Of a stretch of 64,000 nt of DNA, positions 7,440-16,493 are shown piece after piece (position 1 is the stretch's first letter; every line of letters starts with the position of its first letter). A program made the translations under genes and the position numbers. Under the pieces are notes generated by a model, which did not search any database, was not told where the DNA came from, and worked only from the letters and a program-made list of their open reading frames with translations. The stretch is from Escherichia coli. GTDB lineage: Bacteria; Pseudomonadota; Gammaproteobacteria; Enterobacterales; Enterobacteriaceae. The stretch lies in the NCBI RefSeq assembly GCF_048403405.1, contig NZ_CP183129.1; one strand, given 5' to 3'.

Positions 7440-8441
7440 ATGAGTAAAGTTGGTATTAATGGTTTTGGTCGTATCGGTCGACTGGTGTTGCGTCGATTAC
7501 TTGAAGTCAAAAGCAACATAGACATTGTTGCTATTAATGATCTCACTTCCCCAAAAATTCTCGCCTACCTGTTGAAACATGATTCAAACTACGGACCGTT
7601 CCCCTGGAGCGTTGATTTTACGGAAGATTCACTTATCGTTGATGGAAAAAGTATCGCGGTTTACGCCGAAAAAGAGGCTAAAAATATTCCGTGGAAAGCG
7701 AAAGGCGCAGAAATCATTGTCGAATGTACTGGCTTTTATACCTCCGCCGAGAAATCGCAGGCGCATCTTGATGCTGGTGCGAAGAAGGTGTTGATTTCCG
7801 CCCCTGCCGGTGAAATGAAAACCATCGTTTATAACGTCAATGACGACACACTGGATGGCAACGACACCATTGTTTCCGTGGCGTCATGCACCACTAATTG
7901 TCTTGCACCGATGGCCAAAGCCTTGCACGACAGTTTCGGAATAGAAGTCGGCACGATGACGACCATTCATGCCTATACCGGCACTCAGTCACTGGTGGAT
8001 GGCCCGCGTGGTAAAGATCTACGCGCTTCACGTGCAGCGGCAGAAAATATCATTCCCCACACTACGGGGGCGGCAAAAGCCATTGGTCTGGTGATCCCAG
8101 AACTGAGCGGCAAACTGAAAGGTCATGCACAACGCGTACCCGTGAAAACCGGTTCGGTGACTGAACTGGTGTCTATTCTTGGAAAAAAAGTGACTGCCGA
8201 AGAGGTGAACAACGCGCTTAAAAACGCGACAAACAATAACGAGTCATTTGGTTATACCGATGAAGAAATAGTCTCTTCCGATATCATTGGCAGCCATTTC
8301 GGTTCGGTGTTTGATGCCACGCAAACCGAAATTACCGCCGTGGGCGATTTACAACTGGTGAAAACGGTCGCCTGGTACGATAACGAATATGGCTTCGTCA
8401 CGCAGCTTATTCGCACCCTCGAAAAATTCGCTAAACTCTGA
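7440..8441 (+). CDS. gapC: glyceraldehyde-3-phosphate dehydrogenase C (intact)
   Basis: 333 aa, NAD-binding GxGRIGR, active site [10 protein letters not shown]; uninterrupted frame. Confidence 0.9.
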
Positions 8442-10118: not shown

Positions 10119-10919
10119 TTAACGTAACGAGCGACTTTCCATCGCCTCGATGAGCACCGCATCGTGTTTCAGCGTTTGCCATGCATGGATGACTTCTGCC
10201 GGAAAATCAACGTGAACGATAAAATCTCGCCCGCGGGGACCGTAGCCATCGCTATCATCGCGTAAACGCGGCAGCTCGCCAGTGAGTAGTGAGAGATAAC
10301 GCTCAACCGGCCATAATCCTTGCAACGGATTAACAAAGATTACACTGTCTGCGTTGTTTCCTAGCTGAGGAACGAATCCGGGATAACTTAACCAGCGAGG
10401 TGCATCTGGATTGTCCCCGGTCATACGGCGGAACGTCGCCATCGTGCGCCGCTGCATGGTGGGGTCCTGAACAACGATAGCCGTATGAACTCGTTCTACG
10501 GCCTGATTCAATAGCGCGATGCTAAAGCGTGCGTTTTCACCGCAGTTTGTTGACTGGTCTTCAATCCAGATTTTTTCATGCGGAATATGCCAGAACTGAT
10601 GAGCGATATCGGCCAGGATGGTGGCTTCTGCTCTGCCAGTGGTGCGGATAGTGTTGTAGTGCGGATGCTGTGCGATAGCGCTATACAAAAAAGTTGTCGA
10701 GTGACCGATACCACCACTAATCAGTAGAGGAATTTGCTGATCGCGGGCAATCTTACATGCCGCATCGATAGTCGGCATAACCGCATTGCCTGCAAGGATC
10801 ACGCAATCGGCCTGATACGGCATCTCACCGGAGAAATCATCCTGCGCCAGCCACTGTCCGATAACATTTATGGCATCTATAGTTGCCGTCGAAAGCGTCG
10901 GAAACGGGGTAATGTTCAT
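10119..10919 (-). CDS. ydcF: DUF218-domain protein YdcF
   Basis: 266 aa matches YdcF. Confidence 0.9.
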
Positions 10920-11034
10920 GGTTCCTCCTTATCGTTCCCTTAAGAATACTGCGTGAGATAATAATGAGAAGCGGAGCACTCTGAAAGGAAGATGATGCTT
11001 TTTCTACCTCGCCATCGCGAACCAGACACTGGTT

Positions 11035-11412
11035 TTAGTCATACTGTATTTGCGGAGAAACTGTTGATAAAACATCAATAACATCATTTGACGTGGCAAT
11101 GACATAATGCTCGATCACATTATTTTTATAAATTTCACAACTTTGCATAGTAAACCATGCAAAGTAGGCGGAATTCACTACTCTATAGATCCCCGTTTGG
11201 TTAATACCGTGAATTCCTGACATTCCTAACAAATCACCTTCGTCAGTAACACGAAATGAATGTATCCAGTCAAATGATAACTTAACTTCTGACTTGATCG
11301 CCGGACATATGAGGGTAAGTTCAAGCCTGGCATTTTTATAGCTTAAATCTGATAGTTCGGCATTTTTAAAAGACAATGAAGTCGGAGTGATATTTATAAA
11401 ACATTCATCCAT
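11035..11412 (-). CDS. hypothetical small protein (islet ORF-A, 125 aa)
   Basis: ATG preceded by AGGGG SD; very AT-rich; no TM segment or recognised motif. Confidence 0.55.
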   Translation of the reverse strand: MDECFINITPTSLSFKNAELSDLSYKNARLELTLICPAIKSEVKLSFDWIHSFRVTDEGDLLGMSGIHGINQTGIYRVVNSAYFAWFTMQSCEIYKNNVIEHYVIATSNDVIDVLSTVSPQIQYD

Positions 11413-11531
11413 GTTAATACCCCTTCATATATGAGACTGCTCTCGATAGACGACACATTAACCTTCTGCAAAAACGGTGCGAGTCTGTTTACGTACCATG
11501 TATAATCGATGGACATTACTGTGATTTGAAA

Positions 11532-11981
11532 TTACCTTGTCCAGTCATCAACCATTTTTTTCAGGGGGAACATCTGCAATACATTCATTAATGCGAAATA
11601 TAATTCCCCCTGTGGCACCAATATTCTAATCTTCTCATCCCCTAAAATGAAAAATTGCAATTGACGTTTGAAACCTAATGTTTTATCTTCAGGTAATTCA
11701 GCTTGTATTTTTTTATTGATATCATCAAGGTAGATGTGATGACAATACTCATCAAACATACTCATTACTTCCAGACCGTTTACAGATGTCCATCTTTGTT
11801 CACTTTCCCAATAAACAAGAACCGGTTTGCGGCAGGTATATCTGCCTAAAAAGCGCTGAATGTGTTCTTCCTGATTCTCGTAAAATATTGCCTCTGCATT
11901 CGAGATTTGCCGACGCATTCGCCAGCGGATTTTTTCTTCATAAAAAGACAATTTGTCGCATTTGGTATTACTCAAATTCAT
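11532..11981 (-). CDS. hypothetical small protein (islet ORF-B, 149 aa from MNLSNTK)
   Basis: ATG at 11981 overlaps the stop of ORF-C by 11 nt (coupling geometry); the track start is a TTG 9 nt upstream. Confidence 0.5.
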   Translation of the reverse strand: MNLSNTKCDKLSFYEEKIRWRMRRQISNAEAIFYENQEEHIQRFLGRYTCRKPVLVYWESEQRWTSVNGLEVMSMFDEYCHHIYLDDINKKIQAELPEDKTLGFKRQLQFFILGDEKIRILVPQGELYFALMNVLQMFPLKKMVDDWTR

Positions 11982-12360
11982 TGTCAACAACTCGCATGGT
12001 TTTAAATATAAAATTTAAAAAACCGCCAAACAAATGAAGTGAAATTTCATACTTCTTTGCCTTATAAACAATTACCGCATCTTTAATATTACCTGCATTT
12101 TGGTTATCTATAAGTTCAGCAATATCCATAACCTGCGATAAATGTTCCACTCCCGTAAACTCGAACCTTTTTCGTTCCCTTCCGGCTGTAAATTCATCAA
12201 CATAAAGTTCTGCCGTCAATATAAAATTATACTCGGTGTGGTGACATTCCATTCTGGTTTCTACTAAAACACCATCATGCCAGATAATATTGTCTAAATT
12301 TTTCATACTATTAATCCAATCCATTACTTTCTGATAAAATTTCCTCTGGAAGTTTTTCAT
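11968..12360 (-). CDS. hypothetical small protein (islet ORF-C, up to 130 aa)
   Basis: open frame with three candidate ATG starts (M1, M13, M19), none with a strong SD; AT-rich. Confidence 0.45.
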   Translation of the reverse strand: MKNFQRKFYQKVMDWINSMKNLDNIIWHDGVLVETRMECHHTEYNFILTAELYVDEFTAGRERKRFEFTGVEHLSQVMDIAELIDNQNAGNIKDAVIVYKAKKYEISLHLFGGFLNFIFKTMRVVDNEFE

Positions 12361-12537
12361 AGAAAGAGATTAAAGCCTGACCGACGCAATCAAGCTCTAT
12401 TATTCGCTCATAATACGATCTCATTAAAATATCATGCTTACTCATTGCAATACGTCCTGTTTACCATGGGCAGAGTATGAATGTAACTTATGTAAAATAG
12501 TACCGCCCTTGCTATTTTTCAGAATTCATAAAGAAAA

Positions 12538-12566
12538 AACCCGGCGCTAAATGCTTACCGGGTTTT
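12538..12566 (-). terminator. rho-independent terminator downstream of hrpA
   Basis: stem AACCCGG/CCGGGTT with 13-nt loop, followed on the minus strand by a run of 6 T; lies 25-50 nt past the hrpA stop. Confidence 0.75.
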
Positions 12567-12590: not shown

Positions 12591-15500
12591 TTAACCGCTA
12601 ATCTGCTCCATCGCCTGCAAAATACGCTTATCTGAAATCGGATAAGGCGTACCAAGTTGTTGAGCGAAGTAACTAACGCGCAACTCTTCTATCATCCAAC
12701 GGATCTCTTTCACGTCTTCATCCTCACGACGTGCGGGCGGCAGTTTGTTGATCCATTGCTGCCACGCCTGCTGGACATTTTCGACTTTCAGCATCTGAGC
12801 ACGGTCGCGATGTGGGTCAACCGCCAGTTTTTCCAGCCGTTTTTCAATCGCCTGCAAATAACGCAGCGTGTCGCCCAACCGTTTGAAGCCGTTACTAGTG
12901 ACAAAACCGCGATATACCAACCCGCCCATCTGCGCTTTAATGTCAGAAAGCCCCAGCGCCATGGTCATATCCACCCGCCCTTTCAGACGTTTATTGATAT
13001 TGAACACCGCAGTAAGGATTTGCTCGACCTGCTTCGCAATATCCACCACCGTGTCGTTCAGTTCAGCGCGGACTTTTTCATGCAGCGCAGCAAAACCTTC
13101 TTCCGTCCAGACCGGGCCACCATTGGCGTCGATCAGTTGATCCACACCGCAGGAGATACAGTCGTCGATCAGCTCCAGCACTTTGCCATACGGGTTAAAG
13201 TACAGCCCCAGCTTGGCTTTGTTTGGCAACTTCTCATGCAAATATTTGATTGGCGAGGGAATATTCAGCAGCAGTAGACGGCGAAGACCGTTCCACATTG
13301 CCTGCTTTTGTTCCAGCGGATTATCAAACAGTTTGATCGCCACGCTGTCGCGTTCATCCACTAGCGCTGGCCACGCCTTCACTTTATAGTTGCCACGCTT
13401 CTGTTCGTAGCTTTCCGGCAGCTGACCAAAACTCCAGATATGTAAGCCGCTCTGCTCGATACCGTCATCCGCCACCGCAGACAGCGTTTCCTGCACTTTG
13501 CCTTTCAGCGCATCTTTCAGATCTTGTAGAGAGCGCCCTTCTTTTAGCTTCTTGTTTTTGTCATCCACCACACGGAAGGTGATTTTCAGGTGATCGGGCA
13601 CCTGATCCCAGTGCCAGTCTTCGCGGTCAACGGTGACGCCAGTCATCCGCCGTAGCTCTCGTTCAAGGCTGTCGAGCAACGGCAATTCCAGCGGTGTGAC
13701 GCGGCCTAAAAAAGCTTCGGCGTAGTTTGGCGCGGGCACAAAATTACGCCGTACCGGTTTCGGCAACGATTTAATCAGAGCAATCACCAGTTCGCGGCGC
13801 AGACCGGGGATCTGCCACTCAAATCCGCTCTCCTCCACCTGGTTAAGTAACGGCAGCGGGATATGTACCGTCACGCCGTCCGCATCCGCCCCTGGCTCAA
13901 ACTGATAACTCAAACGCAGCTTGAGATTGCCCTGATGCCAGAAGTTCGGGTAATCCAGCTTGCTGATCTTTTCCGCCCCTTCTTTGATCAACATGCTCTT
14001 TTCAAAGTTGAGCAAATCAGGCGTTTCGCGGCTGACTTTTTTCCACCAGCTGTCGAAGTGACGTGCGGAGATCACATCGTGGCTGATGCGCTGGTCGTAA
14101 AACTCAAACAGCGTTTCGTCATCCACCAGAATATCGCGGCGACGTGTTTTGTGTTCCAGTTCTTCCACTTCGGCCCGTAGTTTCAGGTTTTCACGGAAGA
14201 ATGCGTGACGCGTCTGCCAGTCACCTTCCACCAGCGCGTGGCGAATAAAGAGTTCACGACATAACGCCGGATCGATCTGGCTGTAGTTGACCTTGCGCGC
14301 GGCAACAATCGGCAAGCCATAAACAGTGACTTTTTCCGTTGCCATCACCGCGCCCTGCGCCCGTTCCCAGTGCGGTTCGCTGTAGATGCGTTTAATCAAA
14401 TGCTGAGCAACTGGCTCCACCCATTCTGGATCGATGCGTGCCGCAATGCGCCCCCACAGGCGGCTGGTTTCTACCAGTTCCGCCACCATTACCCATTTCG
14501 GCGGCTTTTTAAATAAGCCGGAACCGGGGAAAATGGAGAAACGCGCGTTACGTGCGCCGGTATATTCTTGTTTATCGGCATCTTTCATGCCGATATGGGA
14601 AAGCAAACCGGTCAGTAAGGCGATGTGAATTTCGCGATACTCCGCCGGTTCGCTGTTAACCGGAATGCCAAGTTCTTTTACCACCTGGCGCAACTGGGTG
14701 TAGATATCCTGCCATTCGCGCACGCGCAGATAGTTGAGATAATCGGTACGACACAGGCGACGGAAAGCGTTGGAAGAAAGCGCCTTTTGCTGCTCGCCAA
14801 GATAATTCCACAGATTTACAAACGCGAGGAAGTCGGATTCTTTGTCGTGGAAGCGACGATGTTTTTCGTCCGATGCCTGCTGTTTGTCCATCGGTCGTTC
14901 GCGCGGATCCTGGATGGAGAGCGCGGACGTGATAATCATCGCCTCACGCACGCAGCCATGTTTTTGCGCTTCCAGCACCATACGCGCCAGACGAGGATCG
15001 ACAGGCAATTGCGAAAGCTGGCGACCGAGCGGCGTCAGTTTATAGGCGCTGGCCTGTTCATCAGTGGTGATCGCGCCCAGCTCTTCGAGCAGACGCACGC
15101 CATCCTGGATATTACGTTTATCCGGTGCTTCGACAAATGGGAACGCGGCGATATCGCCCAACCCCAGCGCGGTCATCTGTAAAATAACCGAGGCCAGGTT
15201 GGTACGCAGAATCTCCGGATCGGTAAACTCCGGGCGCGAGAGGAAATCGTCTTCGGAATAGAGACGAATACAGATCCCTTCGGACACACGACCACAGCGG
15301 CCTTTACGCTGGTTGGCAGACGCCTGCGAAATGGGCTCAATCGGCAAACGCTGCACTTTGGTGCGATAGCTGTAGCGGCTGATACGCGCCGTACCTGGGT
15401 CGATAACGTATTTAATCCCCGGTACGGTCAGCGACGTTTCCGCGACGTTGGTCGCCAGCACAATGCGCCGTCCACTGTGCGACTGGAACACGCGGTTCTG

Positions 15501-16493
15501 TTCGCTGTTCGAAAGCCGCGCATAAAGCGGCAAGATTTCGGTATGGCGTAAGTTCAGCTTGTTCAGCGCATCGGCGGTATCGCGAATTTCCCGCTCACCG
15601 CTCATAAAGATCAGAATGTCGCCGGGACTTTCCTGGCTCAGTTCGTCTACGGCGTCAAAAATCGCCTGCAACTGATCGCGCTCGGTGTCATCGGCTTCTT
15701 CAACAATCGGGCGATAGCGCACTTCCACCGGATAGGTCCGACCGGAGACTTCGATAATCGGCGCATTATTAAAGTGGCGCGAAAAGCGTTCCGGGTCGAT
15801 AGTCGCGGAAGTGATAATGATTTTTAGGTCAGGACGCCGCGGTAGCAACTCTTTCAAATAGCCGAGCAGAAAATCGATATTCAGGCTGCGTTCGTGCGCT
15901 TCGTCAATAATGATAGTGTCGTACTGCATCAGCAGGCGGTCTTGCTGGATCTCCGCCAGCAGGATACCGTCGGTCATCAGCTTGACCATCGTGTTATCAC
16001 TAACGTGATCACTGAAACGCACTTTGTAACCGATGCAACCGCCCGGCTCCGTTTTCAGCTCTTCCGCAATACGGTTCGCCACCGTTCGTGCCGCCAGGCG
16101 ACGCGGCTGGGTATGGCCGATCAGCCCTTTAATCCCGCGCCCCAGTTCCATACAGATTTTCGGTAGCTGAGTCGTCTTACCGGAACCGGTTTCCCCGGCG
16201 ACGATCACCACCTGGTGATCACGAATCGCTTCGAGAATGTCCTTCTTTTTCTGACTAACTGGCAAATTGTCGGGATAAGTGATTTCCGGTCGTGCCGCTT
16301 CACGCAGCAGGACTTTCCCTGCCGCCTGGTCAATCTCTTTCGCCATCTCCTGGAAAATGGCCTGTTGTGCATCAGGATTTTTAACCTTCTTCACACCGTG
16401 CAGACGGCGTAAAAAACGCTGTCTGTCGCGCAGCATCAGCGAATCCAGCCGCTGCTGCAAGGCTGTAAAGGTCAATTTTTGTTGTTCTGTCAT
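12591..16493 (-). CDS. hrpA: ATP-dependent RNA helicase HrpA (DEAH box)
   Basis: 1300 aa; GETGSGKTTQ and DEAHER motifs. Confidence 0.95.
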   Translation of the reverse strand: MTEQQKLTFTALQQRLDSLMLRDRQRFLRRLHGVKKVKNPDAQQAIFQEMAKEIDQAAGKVLLREAARPEITYPDNLPVSQKKKDILEAIRDHQVVIVAGETGSGKTTQLPKICMELGRGIKGLIGHTQPRRLAARTVANRIAEELKTEPGGCIGYKVRFSDHVSDNTMVKLMTDGILLAEIQQDRLLMQYDTIIIDEAHERSLNIDFLLGYLKELLPRRPDLKIIITSATIDPERFSRHFNNAPIIEVSGRTYPVEVRYRPIVEEADDTERDQLQAIFDAVDELSQESPGDILIFMSGEREIRDTADALNKLNLRHTEILPLYARLSNSEQNRVFQSHSGRRIVLATNVAETSLTVPGIKYVIDPGTARISRYSYRTKVQRLPIEPISQASANQRKGRCGRVSEGICIRLYSEDDFLSRPEFTDPEILRTNLASVILQMTALGLGDIAAFPFVEAPDKRNIQDGVRLLEELGAITTDEQASAYKLTPLGRQLSQLPVDPRLARMVLEAQKHGCVREAMIITSALSIQDPRERPMDKQQASDEKHRRFHDKESDFLAFVNLWNYLGEQQKALSSNAFRRLCRTDYLNYLRVREWQDIYTQLRQVVKELGIPVNSEPAEYREIHIALLTGLLSHIGMKDADKQEYTGARNARFSIFPGSGLFKKPPKWVMVAELVETSRLWGRIAARIDPEWVEPVAQHLIKRIYSEPHWERAQGAVMATEKVTVYGLPIVAARKVNYSQIDPALCRELFIRHALVEGDWQTRHAFFRENLKLRAEVEELEHKTRRRDILVDDETLFEFYDQRISHDVISARHFDSWWKKVSRETPDLLNFEKSMLIKEGAEKISKLDYPNFWHQGNLKLRLSYQFEPGADADGVTVHIPLPLLNQVEESGFEWQIPGLRRELVIALIKSLPKPVRRNFVPAPNYAEAFLGRVTPLELPLLDSLERELRRMTGVTVDREDWHWDQVPDHLKITFRVVDDKNKKLKEGRSLQDLKDALKGKVQETLSAVADDGIEQSGLHIWSFGQLPESYEQKRGNYKVKAWPALVDERDSVAIKLFDNPLEQKQAMWNGLRRLLLLNIPSPIKYLHEKLPNKAKLGLYFNPYGKVLELIDDCISCGVDQLIDANGGPVWTEEGFAALHEKVRAELNDTVVDIAKQVEQILTAVFNINKRLKGRVDMTMALGLSDIKAQMGGLVYRGFVTSNGFKRLGDTLRYLQAIEKRLEKLAVDPHRDRAQMLKVENVQQAWQQWINKLPPARREDEDVKEIRWMIEELRVSYFAQQLGTPYPISDKRILQAMEQISG

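What the first reader, a model, noticed from the sequence alone, without database searches (positions are those of the whole stretch)
12311..12445. Possible 44-codon leader ORF ahead of islet ORF-C
None of the three candidate ATG starts of ORF-C has a convincing Shine-Dalgarno. About 85 nt upstream, in another frame, lies a 44-codon ORF (MSKHDILMRSYYERIIELDCVGQALISFYEKLPEEILSESNGLD) preceded by AGGA and ending a few nt before the third candidate start of ORF-C (MKNLDNIIWHDG…). The islet may therefore be a four-cistron unit with serial coupling.
Basis: seen in the sequence. Interest (0 to 1): 0.35.

Follow-up and report, generated by a model that had tools for sequence, protein, structure and literature searches.

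The report
Deleted remnant of an immunity gene
The 44-codon "leader" reading frame is real, but it is the stump of a 141-codon gene that is still intact at the same spot in E. coli O157:H7; that gene's relatives sit next to Rhs toxin genes, in the place where immunity genes lie, so this is ordinary gene decay and not a purpose-built leader peptide.

Summary
A 44-codon ATG ORF lies on the minus strand at 12311-12445. AGGA sits 9 nt upstream, and its stop is 4 nt before the ATG at 12306.

It is not a dedicated leader. RefSeq already marks 12341-12445 as a pseudogene fragment. In 335 of 5426 complete E. coli genomes, mostly O157:H7 and O55:H7, the same position holds an intact 141-codon gene with the same 5' region and the same stop-4nt-ATG junction. 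The window allele, found in 251 genomes, differs by a net 291-nt (97-codon) in-frame loss.

The parent gene belongs to an unannotated family of about 180 aa with a HEAT-like helical fold (AlphaFold pLDDT 95.5). In three divergent loci a family member lies directly downstream of the same Rhs C-terminal toxin type, so it is most likely a cognate Rhs immunity family. ORF-A is related to a protein encoded directly after CdiA. The hrpA-ydcF islet is therefore most likely a toxin-less array of orphan immunity genes, with its first gene decayed here.

ORF-C starts at 12306; its homologues, including E. albertii, begin MKN. Whether the stump still passes ribosomes to ORF-C could not be tested. In-frame loss alone has a one-in-three chance, and the 130-aa alleles stop 38 nt before an intact ORF-C.

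Interest is low.

The parts
12311..12445 (-). 44-codon ORF: internally deleted remnant of islet gene 1, an orphan Rhs-immunity-family gene
   Evidence: ORF listed. Homology to the O157:H7 141-aa gene, with 313 nt replaced by 22 nt. The exact peptide occurs on more than 1000 contigs.
12341..12445 (-). The part that still matches the parent gene: codons 1-35, corresponding to helices 1-2 of a 12-helix solenoid
   Evidence: RefSeq pseudogene feature 'missing C-terminus' at exactly these coordinates. Family alignment A2. AlphaFold model helices H3-16 and H21-30.
12311..12340 (-). Junction and tail (codons 36-44 ILSESNGLD plus TAA). It has in-frame but statistically insignificant matches to parent codons YILS and NSNGY.
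   Evidence: shuffle p = 0.10 and 0.31.
12455..12458 (-). AGGA Shine-Dalgarno-like element, 9 nt before the ATG, conserved with the intact alleles
   Evidence: -5.0 kcal/mol. The block ACAGGACGTATTGCAATG is identical in the window, L003, L007 and L010.
12534..12566 (-). GC-rich hairpin plus T-run after the hrpA stop (putative hrpA terminator). It is shared with the K-12 empty site and marks the upstream edge of the islet.
   Evidence: Read from the sequence. The consensus terminator scan did not call it.
11968..12306 (-). ORF-C, 112 aa, with its true start at the third ATG (MKNLDNIIWHDG...)
   Evidence: RefSeq WP_001523214.1. The 62-64% identical homologues, one of them named E. albertii, start MKN, and the upstream extensions are not conserved.
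11532..11981 (-). ORF-B, 149 aa. Its ATG lies 14 nt inside the end of ORF-C and it has no SD.
11035..11412 (-). ORF-A, 125 aa, related to a CdiI-position immunity family. It has its own SD.
   Evidence: 46% identity to P0116. P0116 lies 6 nt downstream of CdiA, and a relative sits in an orphan cdiA-CT/cdiI array. SD -8.0 kcal/mol.
10993..12516 (-). Extent of the islet relative to the K-12 empty hrpA-ydcF site
   Evidence: K-12 homology ends at window 12517 and resumes at 10992.

Best explanation
The 44-codon ORF is what remains of the first gene of a small, toxin-less array of orphan immunity genes inserted between hrpA and ydcF.

Shown: O157:H7 and related strains have a 141-codon gene at the same position. 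The window allele keeps that gene's 5' region, AGGA, ATG and first 35 codons, and it keeps the stop region next to ORF-C. It has lost a net 291 nt (97 codons) in frame. The parent gene belongs to a family of about 180 aa with a HEAT/ARM-like solenoid fold. In three divergent loci a member of that family lies directly downstream of one and the same Rhs C-terminal toxin type.

Inferred: the family is that toxin's cognate immunity protein. The E. coli copies are orphan immunity genes that would protect against attack by neighbours. A 44-aa product with only 2 of the 12 helices cannot do that job, so the window copy is a pseudogene.

Inferred and untested: because the deletion is in frame and kept the start signals, ribosomes probably still translate the stump and terminate 4 nt before the ORF-C ATG. 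ORF-C, which has a weak SD, may therefore still be fed by termination-reinitiation as in the ancestral operon. This would be a by-product of ancestry, not a dedicated leader.
For: (1) RefSeq/PGAP annotates window 12341-12445 as a hypothetical-protein pseudogene 'missing C-terminus' in three genomes.

(2) O157:H7 EC4115 has intact genes of 141, 112, 143 and 125 aa at the same site, with the stop of gene 1 four nt before the ORF-C ATG.

(3) Homology runs from window 12640-12337 to L003 2881-3184, and from window 12314-10880 to L003 3498-4919. So 313 nt are replaced by 22 nt, a net loss of 291 nt.

(4) Of 5426 complete E. coli genomes, 586 carry the islet: 251 the deletion allele (247 at 99% identity or more) and 335 the long allele.

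(5) Gene 1 decays repeatedly. There are 83-aa frameshift forms, 45-aa and 51-aa truncations, and fusions of the gene 1 N-terminus to the ORF-A C-terminus.

(7) Family members follow an Rhs protein or Rhs-CT by 16, 80 and 46 nt in L019, L021/L022 and L027/L028. The toxin C-termini are 58-70% identical to each other, and the immunity-position proteins are 36-48% identical to O157 gene 1.

(8) ORF-A is 46% identical to a protein encoded 6 nt after CdiA. An alternative islet at the same site carries a SUKH/SMI1-KNR4 immunity-family gene.

(9) No toxin remnants were found in the E. coli islets by tblastn.
Against: No expression data of any kind exist, and the consensus scan found no sigma-70 promoter upstream of the ORF.

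The immunity role rests on gene neighbourhood only. There is no Pfam, NCBIfam, PADLOC or PDB sequence match, and a HEAT-like fold is generic.

Even the 141-aa O157 form lacks the last ~55 residues of the wider family, so the 'intact' allele may itself be non-functional.

The exact parental allele of the window copy was not found. The window N-terminus is unusually diverged from both sampled long alleles (dS about 0.36-0.38, against 0.04-0.06 for ORF-C and ORF-A relative to L010). The deletion history, one event or several, therefore cannot be reconstructed.

The in-frame outcome and the intact ORF in nearly all carriers are also what selection on a functional small ORF would give.
Confidence: 0.85

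Rival explanations
1. Exapted leader. After the deletion, the stump was kept open by selection because ORF-C, which lacks a usable SD, depends on ribosomes delivered by an upstream ORF that ends 4 nt before its ATG. The remnant then functions as an upstream coupling ORF whose peptide sequence is irrelevant.
For: The deletion is in frame, so the ancestral stop-4nt-ATG junction survives. AGGA and the ATG are retained and identical to the intact alleles. The ORF-C SD is weak at -3.9 kcal/mol, and ORF-B overlaps ORF-C by 14 nt, so coupling is typical of this operon. The ORF is open in the deletion-type genomes whose DNA was read (the window and GF60), 247 of 251 carriers are at least 99% identical across it, and almost all listed cluster members are 44 aa. 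The possible in-frame matches at ILS and SNG hint at more than one in-frame event.
Against: An in-frame outcome has a one-in-three prior. The deletion allele is nearly clonal, so there has been little time for decay and openness is uninformative. Alleles with a 1-nt insertion stop 38 nt upstream of ORF-C yet keep ORF-C intact at 112 aa (L010), so tight coupling is not required. The ILS and SNG matches are not significant (p = 0.10 and 0.31). RNA folding shows no special occlusion of the ORF-C start.
Confidence: 0.2
2. The 44-aa peptide is a functional small protein in its own right, for example a two-helix fragment that still binds a partner.
For: The exact peptide is predicted on more than 1000 contigs, and variants are named in both E. 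coli and E. fergusonii. The start signals are acceptable.
Against: It covers only helices 1-2 of a 12-helix solenoid. The one diverged allele examined differs by two non-synonymous and no synonymous changes. No homologue of this length exists outside this deletion lineage, and the exact junction was absent from 100,044 species-representative genomes. It has no family match.
Confidence: 0.04
3. ORF-C really starts at 12360 or 12324, so the small ORF merely overlaps its 5' end and there is no separate upstream cistron.
For: ATGs exist at 12360 and 12324, and some gene callers report the 130-aa and 118-aa forms.
Against: The N-terminal extensions differ completely between alleles: MKNFQRKFYQKVMDWINS here and MVTYLRIVNS in O157. 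They are just the other-frame reading of the end of gene 1. The 62-64% identical homologues, one of them named E. albertii, start at MKN. These two ATGs have the poorest SDs.
Confidence: 0.03
4. A chance ORF in AT-rich intergenic DNA.
For: An ORF of 44 codons or more arises in 6.6% of shuffles.
Against: There is clear homology to the start of a 141-codon gene at the orthologous position.
Confidence: 0.01

Closest known systems
Orphan immunity genes of Rhs and CDI polymorphic-toxin systems (rhsI and cdiI orphans; Poole et al. 2011, PMC3150448)
   Same: These are small same-strand genes related to proteins encoded immediately after Rhs-CT or CdiA-CT toxin domains. They are variably present between strains and clustered in arrays. 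Poole et al. argue that bacteria may keep such genes as an immunity repertoire, and they show that an orphan CdiI is expressed.
   Different: The array here is not attached to any rhs or cdi locus and carries no toxin-CT fragments. It sits in a housekeeping intergenic site between hrpA and ydcF. The copy in question is internally deleted to 44 codons. No functional test exists.
Translationally coupled operons with termination-reinitiation at closely spaced or overlapping stop and start codons (general knowledge)
   Same: The upstream stop is 4 nt before a downstream ATG with a weak SD. The next junction is a 14-nt overlap.
   Different: The upstream ORF is a gene remnant, not a conserved cistron. 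The junction distance is 38 nt in other alleles. No measurement of coupling exists.
Regulatory leader peptides of attenuators (for example the trp, leu and his leaders)
   Same: A short ORF upstream of an operon.
   Different: There are no runs of regulatory codons, no alternative terminator/antiterminator structure, and no Rfam hit in the ORF (the only weak hit, Leu_leader at E = 0.55, lies over the hrpA 3' end). The ORF is not conserved as a short ORF.
HEAT/ARM-repeat proteins (TOG domains, PP2A A subunit)
   Different: Sequence identity is only 6-10%. This is a generic solenoid resemblance and not evidence of shared function.

Membership tests
Rhs-CT-associated immunity (RhsI-position) family of ~180 aa (P0054, P0059, L019 192-aa) | Sequence homology to family members | tested here: met
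   O157 gene 1 matches 31 representatives (E down to 3.5e-30 for non-Escherichia members). Window codons 1-35 are 83% identical to O157 gene 1.
Rhs-CT-associated immunity (RhsI-position) family of ~180 aa (P0054, P0059, L019 192-aa) | Near full-length protein (12-helix solenoid) | tested here: not met
   The window ORF aligns only over residues 1-35, which is helices 1-2. The O157 141-aa form also lacks the last ~55 residues.
Rhs-CT-associated immunity (RhsI-position) family of ~180 aa (P0054, P0059, L019 192-aa) | Gene lies directly downstream of, and on the same strand as, an rhs gene or rhs-CT | tested here: not met
   Met for relatives (L019, 16 nt; L021/L022, 80 nt; L027/L028, 46 nt). Not met in the window or in any E. 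coli islet, which have no rhs or toxin remnant, so these are orphan copies.
Rhs-CT-associated immunity (RhsI-position) family of ~180 aa (P0054, P0059, L019 192-aa) | Co-occurrence with one toxin-CT type across divergent loci | tested here: met
   The three CTs are 58-70% identical to each other, while the downstream proteins are about 36-48% identical to O157 gene 1.
Rhs-CT-associated immunity (RhsI-position) family of ~180 aa (P0054, P0059, L019 192-aa) | Neutralises the cognate toxin | not testable with these tools
   Needs co-expression or competition assays.
Dedicated leader / upstream coupling ORF | Conserved as a short ORF in homologous loci | tested here: not met
   Homologous loci carry 141-aa or 130-aa genes. 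The short form is confined to one nearly clonal deletion allele.
Dedicated leader / upstream coupling ORF | Own start signals, and a stop adjacent to the downstream start | tested here: met
   AGGA 9 nt before the ATG, and TAA 4 nt before ATG 12306.
Dedicated leader / upstream coupling ORF | Stop-start spacing conserved among alleles | tested here: not met
   The 130-aa alleles stop 38 nt upstream of an intact ORF-C.
Dedicated leader / upstream coupling ORF | Translated, and required for downstream expression | not testable with these tools
   Needs Ribo-seq, TIS profiling or reporter fusions.
Orphan immunity gene array | Several small co-oriented genes related to toxin-adjacent immunity proteins | tested here: inconclusive
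   Shown for gene 1 (Rhs) and ORF-A (CdiA). ORF-B and ORF-C have no informative relatives, and the ORF-C model has pLDDT 45.5.
Orphan immunity gene array | Strain-variable presence with alternative cargo at the same site | tested here: met
   586 of 5426 genomes carry it. There is a K-12 empty site, a SUKH-containing alternative islet, and 3-, 4- and 5-gene forms.

The most novel reading that the evidence does not exclude
The stump has been co-opted. An in-frame-deleted pseudogene would be kept open purely as a ribosome-delivery ORF, so that the downstream orphan immunity genes ORF-C and ORF-B, which lack Shine-Dalgarno sequences, stay expressed. This would be an example of a leader ORF born by gene decay.
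Probability: 0.18. Interest if true: 0.4.

Novelty: new member of a known kind. Interest (0 to 1): 0.18.

Why it matters
For the finding itself, the result settles two annotation questions. ORF-C starts at 12306, and the upstream ORF is a truncated gene, not a leader peptide.

There is a modest wider return. The work links an unannotated HEAT-like family of about 180 aa to an unclassified Rhs C-terminal toxin type as its probable immunity partner. It also identifies the hrpA-ydcF intergenic site of E. coli as a small hot spot for toxin-less orphan immunity genes. Their presence, absence or decay differs between lineages such as O157:H7 and the lineage of this window, and could affect susceptibility to Rhs or CDI attack.

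None of this is surprising to specialists in polymorphic toxins.

Tried and rejected
- **Protein family libraries.** Pfam, NCBIfam, PADLOC and PHROGs scans of all islet proteins gave nothing usable. Only ORF-A weakly hit a PHROG of unknown function.
- **PDB by sequence.** A profile search with the family alignment found nothing.
- **Rfam.** A scan of the islet gave only an insignificant Leu_leader hit over the hrpA 3' end.
- **Promoters and terminators.** The consensus scan found no promoter upstream of the small ORF. It found one weak terminator-like hairpin inside the ORF, at the chance rate.
- **ORF-C structure.** The AlphaFold model was too poor (pLDDT 45.5) for a fold search. The afdb50 fold library was unavailable.
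- **dN/dS.** Values between alleles were 0.27-0.63 for all genes on small counts, with no power to show relaxed constraint on the stump.
- **Deletion end-points.** The best matches of the junction segment are not significant, and the parental allele was not sampled.
- **Junction in other species.** An exact-junction search of species-representative genomes gave 0 hits.
- **Toxin remnants.** tblastn of Rhs and CdiA toxins against the E. coli islets found no remnants.
- **RNA folding.** Folding around the ORF-C start showed no notable occlusion.
- **Literature.** Searches for DUF2262 and for hrpA/ydcF/aldA gave nothing relevant.

Full report
**Observation**

The window is E. coli chromosome. hrpA lies at 12591-16493 and ydcF at 10119-10919, both on the minus strand, and they flank an AT-rich islet whose ORFs are also all on the minus strand.

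- AGGA is at 12458-12455, 9 nt before the ATG. The predicted anti-SD duplex is -5.0 kcal/mol.
- The TAA at 12313-12311 is followed 4 nt later by the third candidate ATG of ORF-C (12306).
- The three ORF-C candidates have weak SDs: -2.5, -3.3 and -3.9 kcal/mol, against an islet background mean of -2.3.
- Length alone is not remarkable. An ORF this long arises in 6.6% of shuffles of the 284-nt stretch.

**What it is**

megablast against 5426 complete E. coli genomes shows the islet in 586 of them. A search with the small-ORF region splits these into two groups:

- 251 genomes carry the window allele, 247 of them at 99% identity or more.
- 335 genomes, mostly O157:H7 and O55:H7, match at about 87% identity, but only as far as window position 12337.

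RefSeq annotation of three deletion-type genomes marks window 12341-12445 as a pseudogene: 'hypothetical protein, incomplete, missing C-terminus'. It starts ORF-C at 12306 (112 aa), ORF-B at 11981 (149 aa) and ORF-A at 11412 (125 aa).

In O157:H7 EC4115 the same site holds four intact genes of 141, 112, 143 and 125 aa. The stop of the first gene is 4 nt before the ATG of the ORF-C orthologue.

Pairwise BLAST places the homology breaks at window 12337 and 12314. In between, 313 nt of the O157 gene correspond to 22 nt here, a net loss of 291 nt or 97 codons, in frame. The 5' region including ACAGGACGTATTGCAATG is identical in all alleles, and the TTAATAG(T/C)ATGAAAAAT junction to ORF-C is conserved apart from that one position.

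The 44-codon ORF is therefore the N-terminal 35 codons of islet gene 1 joined in frame to a 9-codon tail and the ancestral stop region. The junction segment has in-frame matches to parent codons YILS and NSNGY. Neither is significant (p = 0.10 and 0.31), and the true parental allele is not among the sampled sequences. The window N-terminus is more diverged from both long alleles (dS about 0.36-0.38) than the rest of the islet.

**Gene 1 decays repeatedly**

The protein databases hold several broken forms of gene 1:

- 83-aa frameshift forms;
- 45-aa and 51-aa truncations;
- fusions of the gene 1 N-terminus to the ORF-A C-terminus;
- 130-aa alleles in which a 1-nt insertion brings the stop to 38 nt upstream of ORF-C.

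The exact 44-aa peptide has been called on more than 1000 contigs, and one-residue variants of it carry both E. coli and E. fergusonii names. The one diverged allele I read (strain GF60) differs by two non-synonymous and no synonymous changes.

**Parent family and the nature of the islet**

No curated family library matches any islet protein. An exhaustive phmmer search with the 141-aa protein found 31 representatives, most of them 170-190 aa at 35-44% identity. The alignment shows that even the O157 protein lacks the last ~55 residues of the family.

Gene neighbourhood is informative:

- In L021/L022, a 180-aa member lies 80 nt after an Rhs protein that has RHS repeats and the RHS core.
- In L019, a 192-aa member lies 16 nt after a full Rhs protein whose C-terminal domain is 58% identical to that of L021. 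A second copy, 84% identical, closes the same orphan array.
- In L027/L028, a 192-aa member lies 46 nt after a DPLGL-delimited C-terminal domain that is 62-70% identical to the other two.

This is three divergent instances of the same toxin-CT type followed by the same protein family. It is the signature of a cognate Rhs toxin/immunity pair as defined by Poole et al. 2011 (PMC3150448).

ORF-A adds to the picture. It is 46% identical to a protein encoded 6 nt after CdiA (Fil_haemagg_2 plus PT-VENN), and a close relative of that protein sits in an orphan cdiA-CT/cdiI array in Cedecea neteri.

Other forms of the hrpA-ydcF site are:

- the empty K-12 form;
- a different islet with a SUKH/SMI1-KNR4 immunity-family gene plus a 66-bp remnant of ORF-A;
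- 5-gene forms with an extra DUF7021+DUF2262 gene, and 3-gene deletion forms.

No toxin fragments are detectable in the E. coli islets. The islet is thus best read as a toxin-less array of orphan immunity genes at a variable site. ORF-B and ORF-C remain unassigned; their family is confined to Escherichia and Shigella, and the ORF-C model was poor.

**ORF-C start**

The 62-64% identical homologues, one of them named E. albertii, begin MKND... and align with MKNLDN at 12306. The upstream extensions (MKNFQRKFYQKVMDWINS here, MVTYLRIVNS in O157) are unrelated. They are simply the other-frame reading of the end of gene 1. The third ATG is therefore the start.

**How it most likely works**

- Shown: this is a remnant of the first cistron with its start signals and stop position intact.
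- Inferred: the 44-aa product is non-functional as an immunity protein.
- Inferred but untested: ribosomes still translate it and terminate 4 nt before the ORF-C ATG. If so, the ancestral coupling to ORF-C survives, and ORF-B follows through its 14-nt overlap. ORF-A is separated by 119 nt and has its own SD (-8.0 kcal/mol), so it is not part of a serial chain.

I do not think the stump is maintained for coupling, for four reasons. In-frame loss has a one-in-three prior. The allele is nearly clonal. The 130-aa alleles tolerate a 38-nt gap with ORF-C intact. RNA folding shows nothing special at the ORF-C start. I give the exapted-leader reading about 0.2.

No promoter was identified. Transcription could come from a weak promoter or from read-through past the hairpin after hrpA.

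**Comparison and novelty**

The closest known systems are the orphan rhsI and cdiI immunity genes. This case differs in three ways: it is detached from any rhs or cdi locus, it lacks toxin fragments, and this copy is internally deleted.

The feature is already flagged as a pseudogene in RefSeq. What is new is only the link between its parent family and an unclassified Rhs-CT toxin type, and the reading of the islet as an orphan immunity array.

**Verdict**

The leader interpretation is only partly right: the cistron position and the junction are correct, but the nature of the ORF is not. Interest is low, at about 0.18.

Noticed in passing
L019:1-1938, L021:1-2373, L027:1-432 (related loci): An Rhs C-terminal toxin type with no Pfam match. 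It consists of DPxGL followed by about 140 aa and ends in a hydrophobic helix. It recurs at 58-70% identity in three loci, each time followed by the HEAT-like ~180-aa family, so this is a probable new Rhs toxin/immunity pair.
   Followed up: partly
window 11035-11412 (-): ORF-A is 46% identical to a protein encoded 6 nt downstream of CdiA (PT-VENN) in Duffyella gerundensis (L024) and in a metagenome contig that carries conjugative-transfer genes (L023). A relative also sits in an orphan cdiA-CT/cdiI array of Cedecea neteri. ORF-A is therefore probably an orphan CdiI-type immunity gene.
   Followed up: partly
window 10993-12516, with L005, L006, L007 and L010: The hrpA-ydcF intergenic site is a variable hot spot. 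Forms seen: empty in K-12; a SUKH/SMI1-KNR4 islet on the opposite strand that retains a 66-bp ORF-A remnant; 3-, 4- and 5-gene forms of this islet; and fusions of gene 1 to ORF-A.
   Followed up: partly
L010:3017-3874 (related locus): Some lineages carry an extra first gene of 285 aa with DUF7021 and DUF2262 domains upstream of gene 1. It may be another immunity-type gene. No literature on DUF2262 was found.
   Followed up: no
window 11394-11516 (-): A 40-codon ATG ORF lies in the ORF-B/ORF-A spacer and overlaps the ORF-A start. It is not conserved in O157:H7, where a TTG-started in-frame extension of ORF-A appears instead. It is probably spurious.
   Followed up: partly
window 11532-11981 (-) vs L003:3831-4262: The 3' end of ORF-B differs between alleles: 149 aa ending ...LKKMVDDWTR here and in L010, against 143 aa ending ...MKNG in O157:H7. 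This suggests an indel or frameshift near the C-terminus in one lineage.
   Followed up: no
window 12341-12445 (-) vs L010 and L003: The retained 105 nt of gene 1 are much more diverged from both long alleles (dS about 0.36-0.38) than ORF-C and ORF-A are from L010 (dS about 0.04-0.05). This implies a mosaic or recombinant origin for this segment.
   Followed up: partly
window 7440-8441 (+): A 333-aa glyceraldehyde-3-phosphate dehydrogenase ORF next to aldA reads as intact in this strain. From memory only, its presumed K-12 counterpart gapC is a pseudogene; neither the gapC identity nor the K-12 state was checked here.
   Followed up: no
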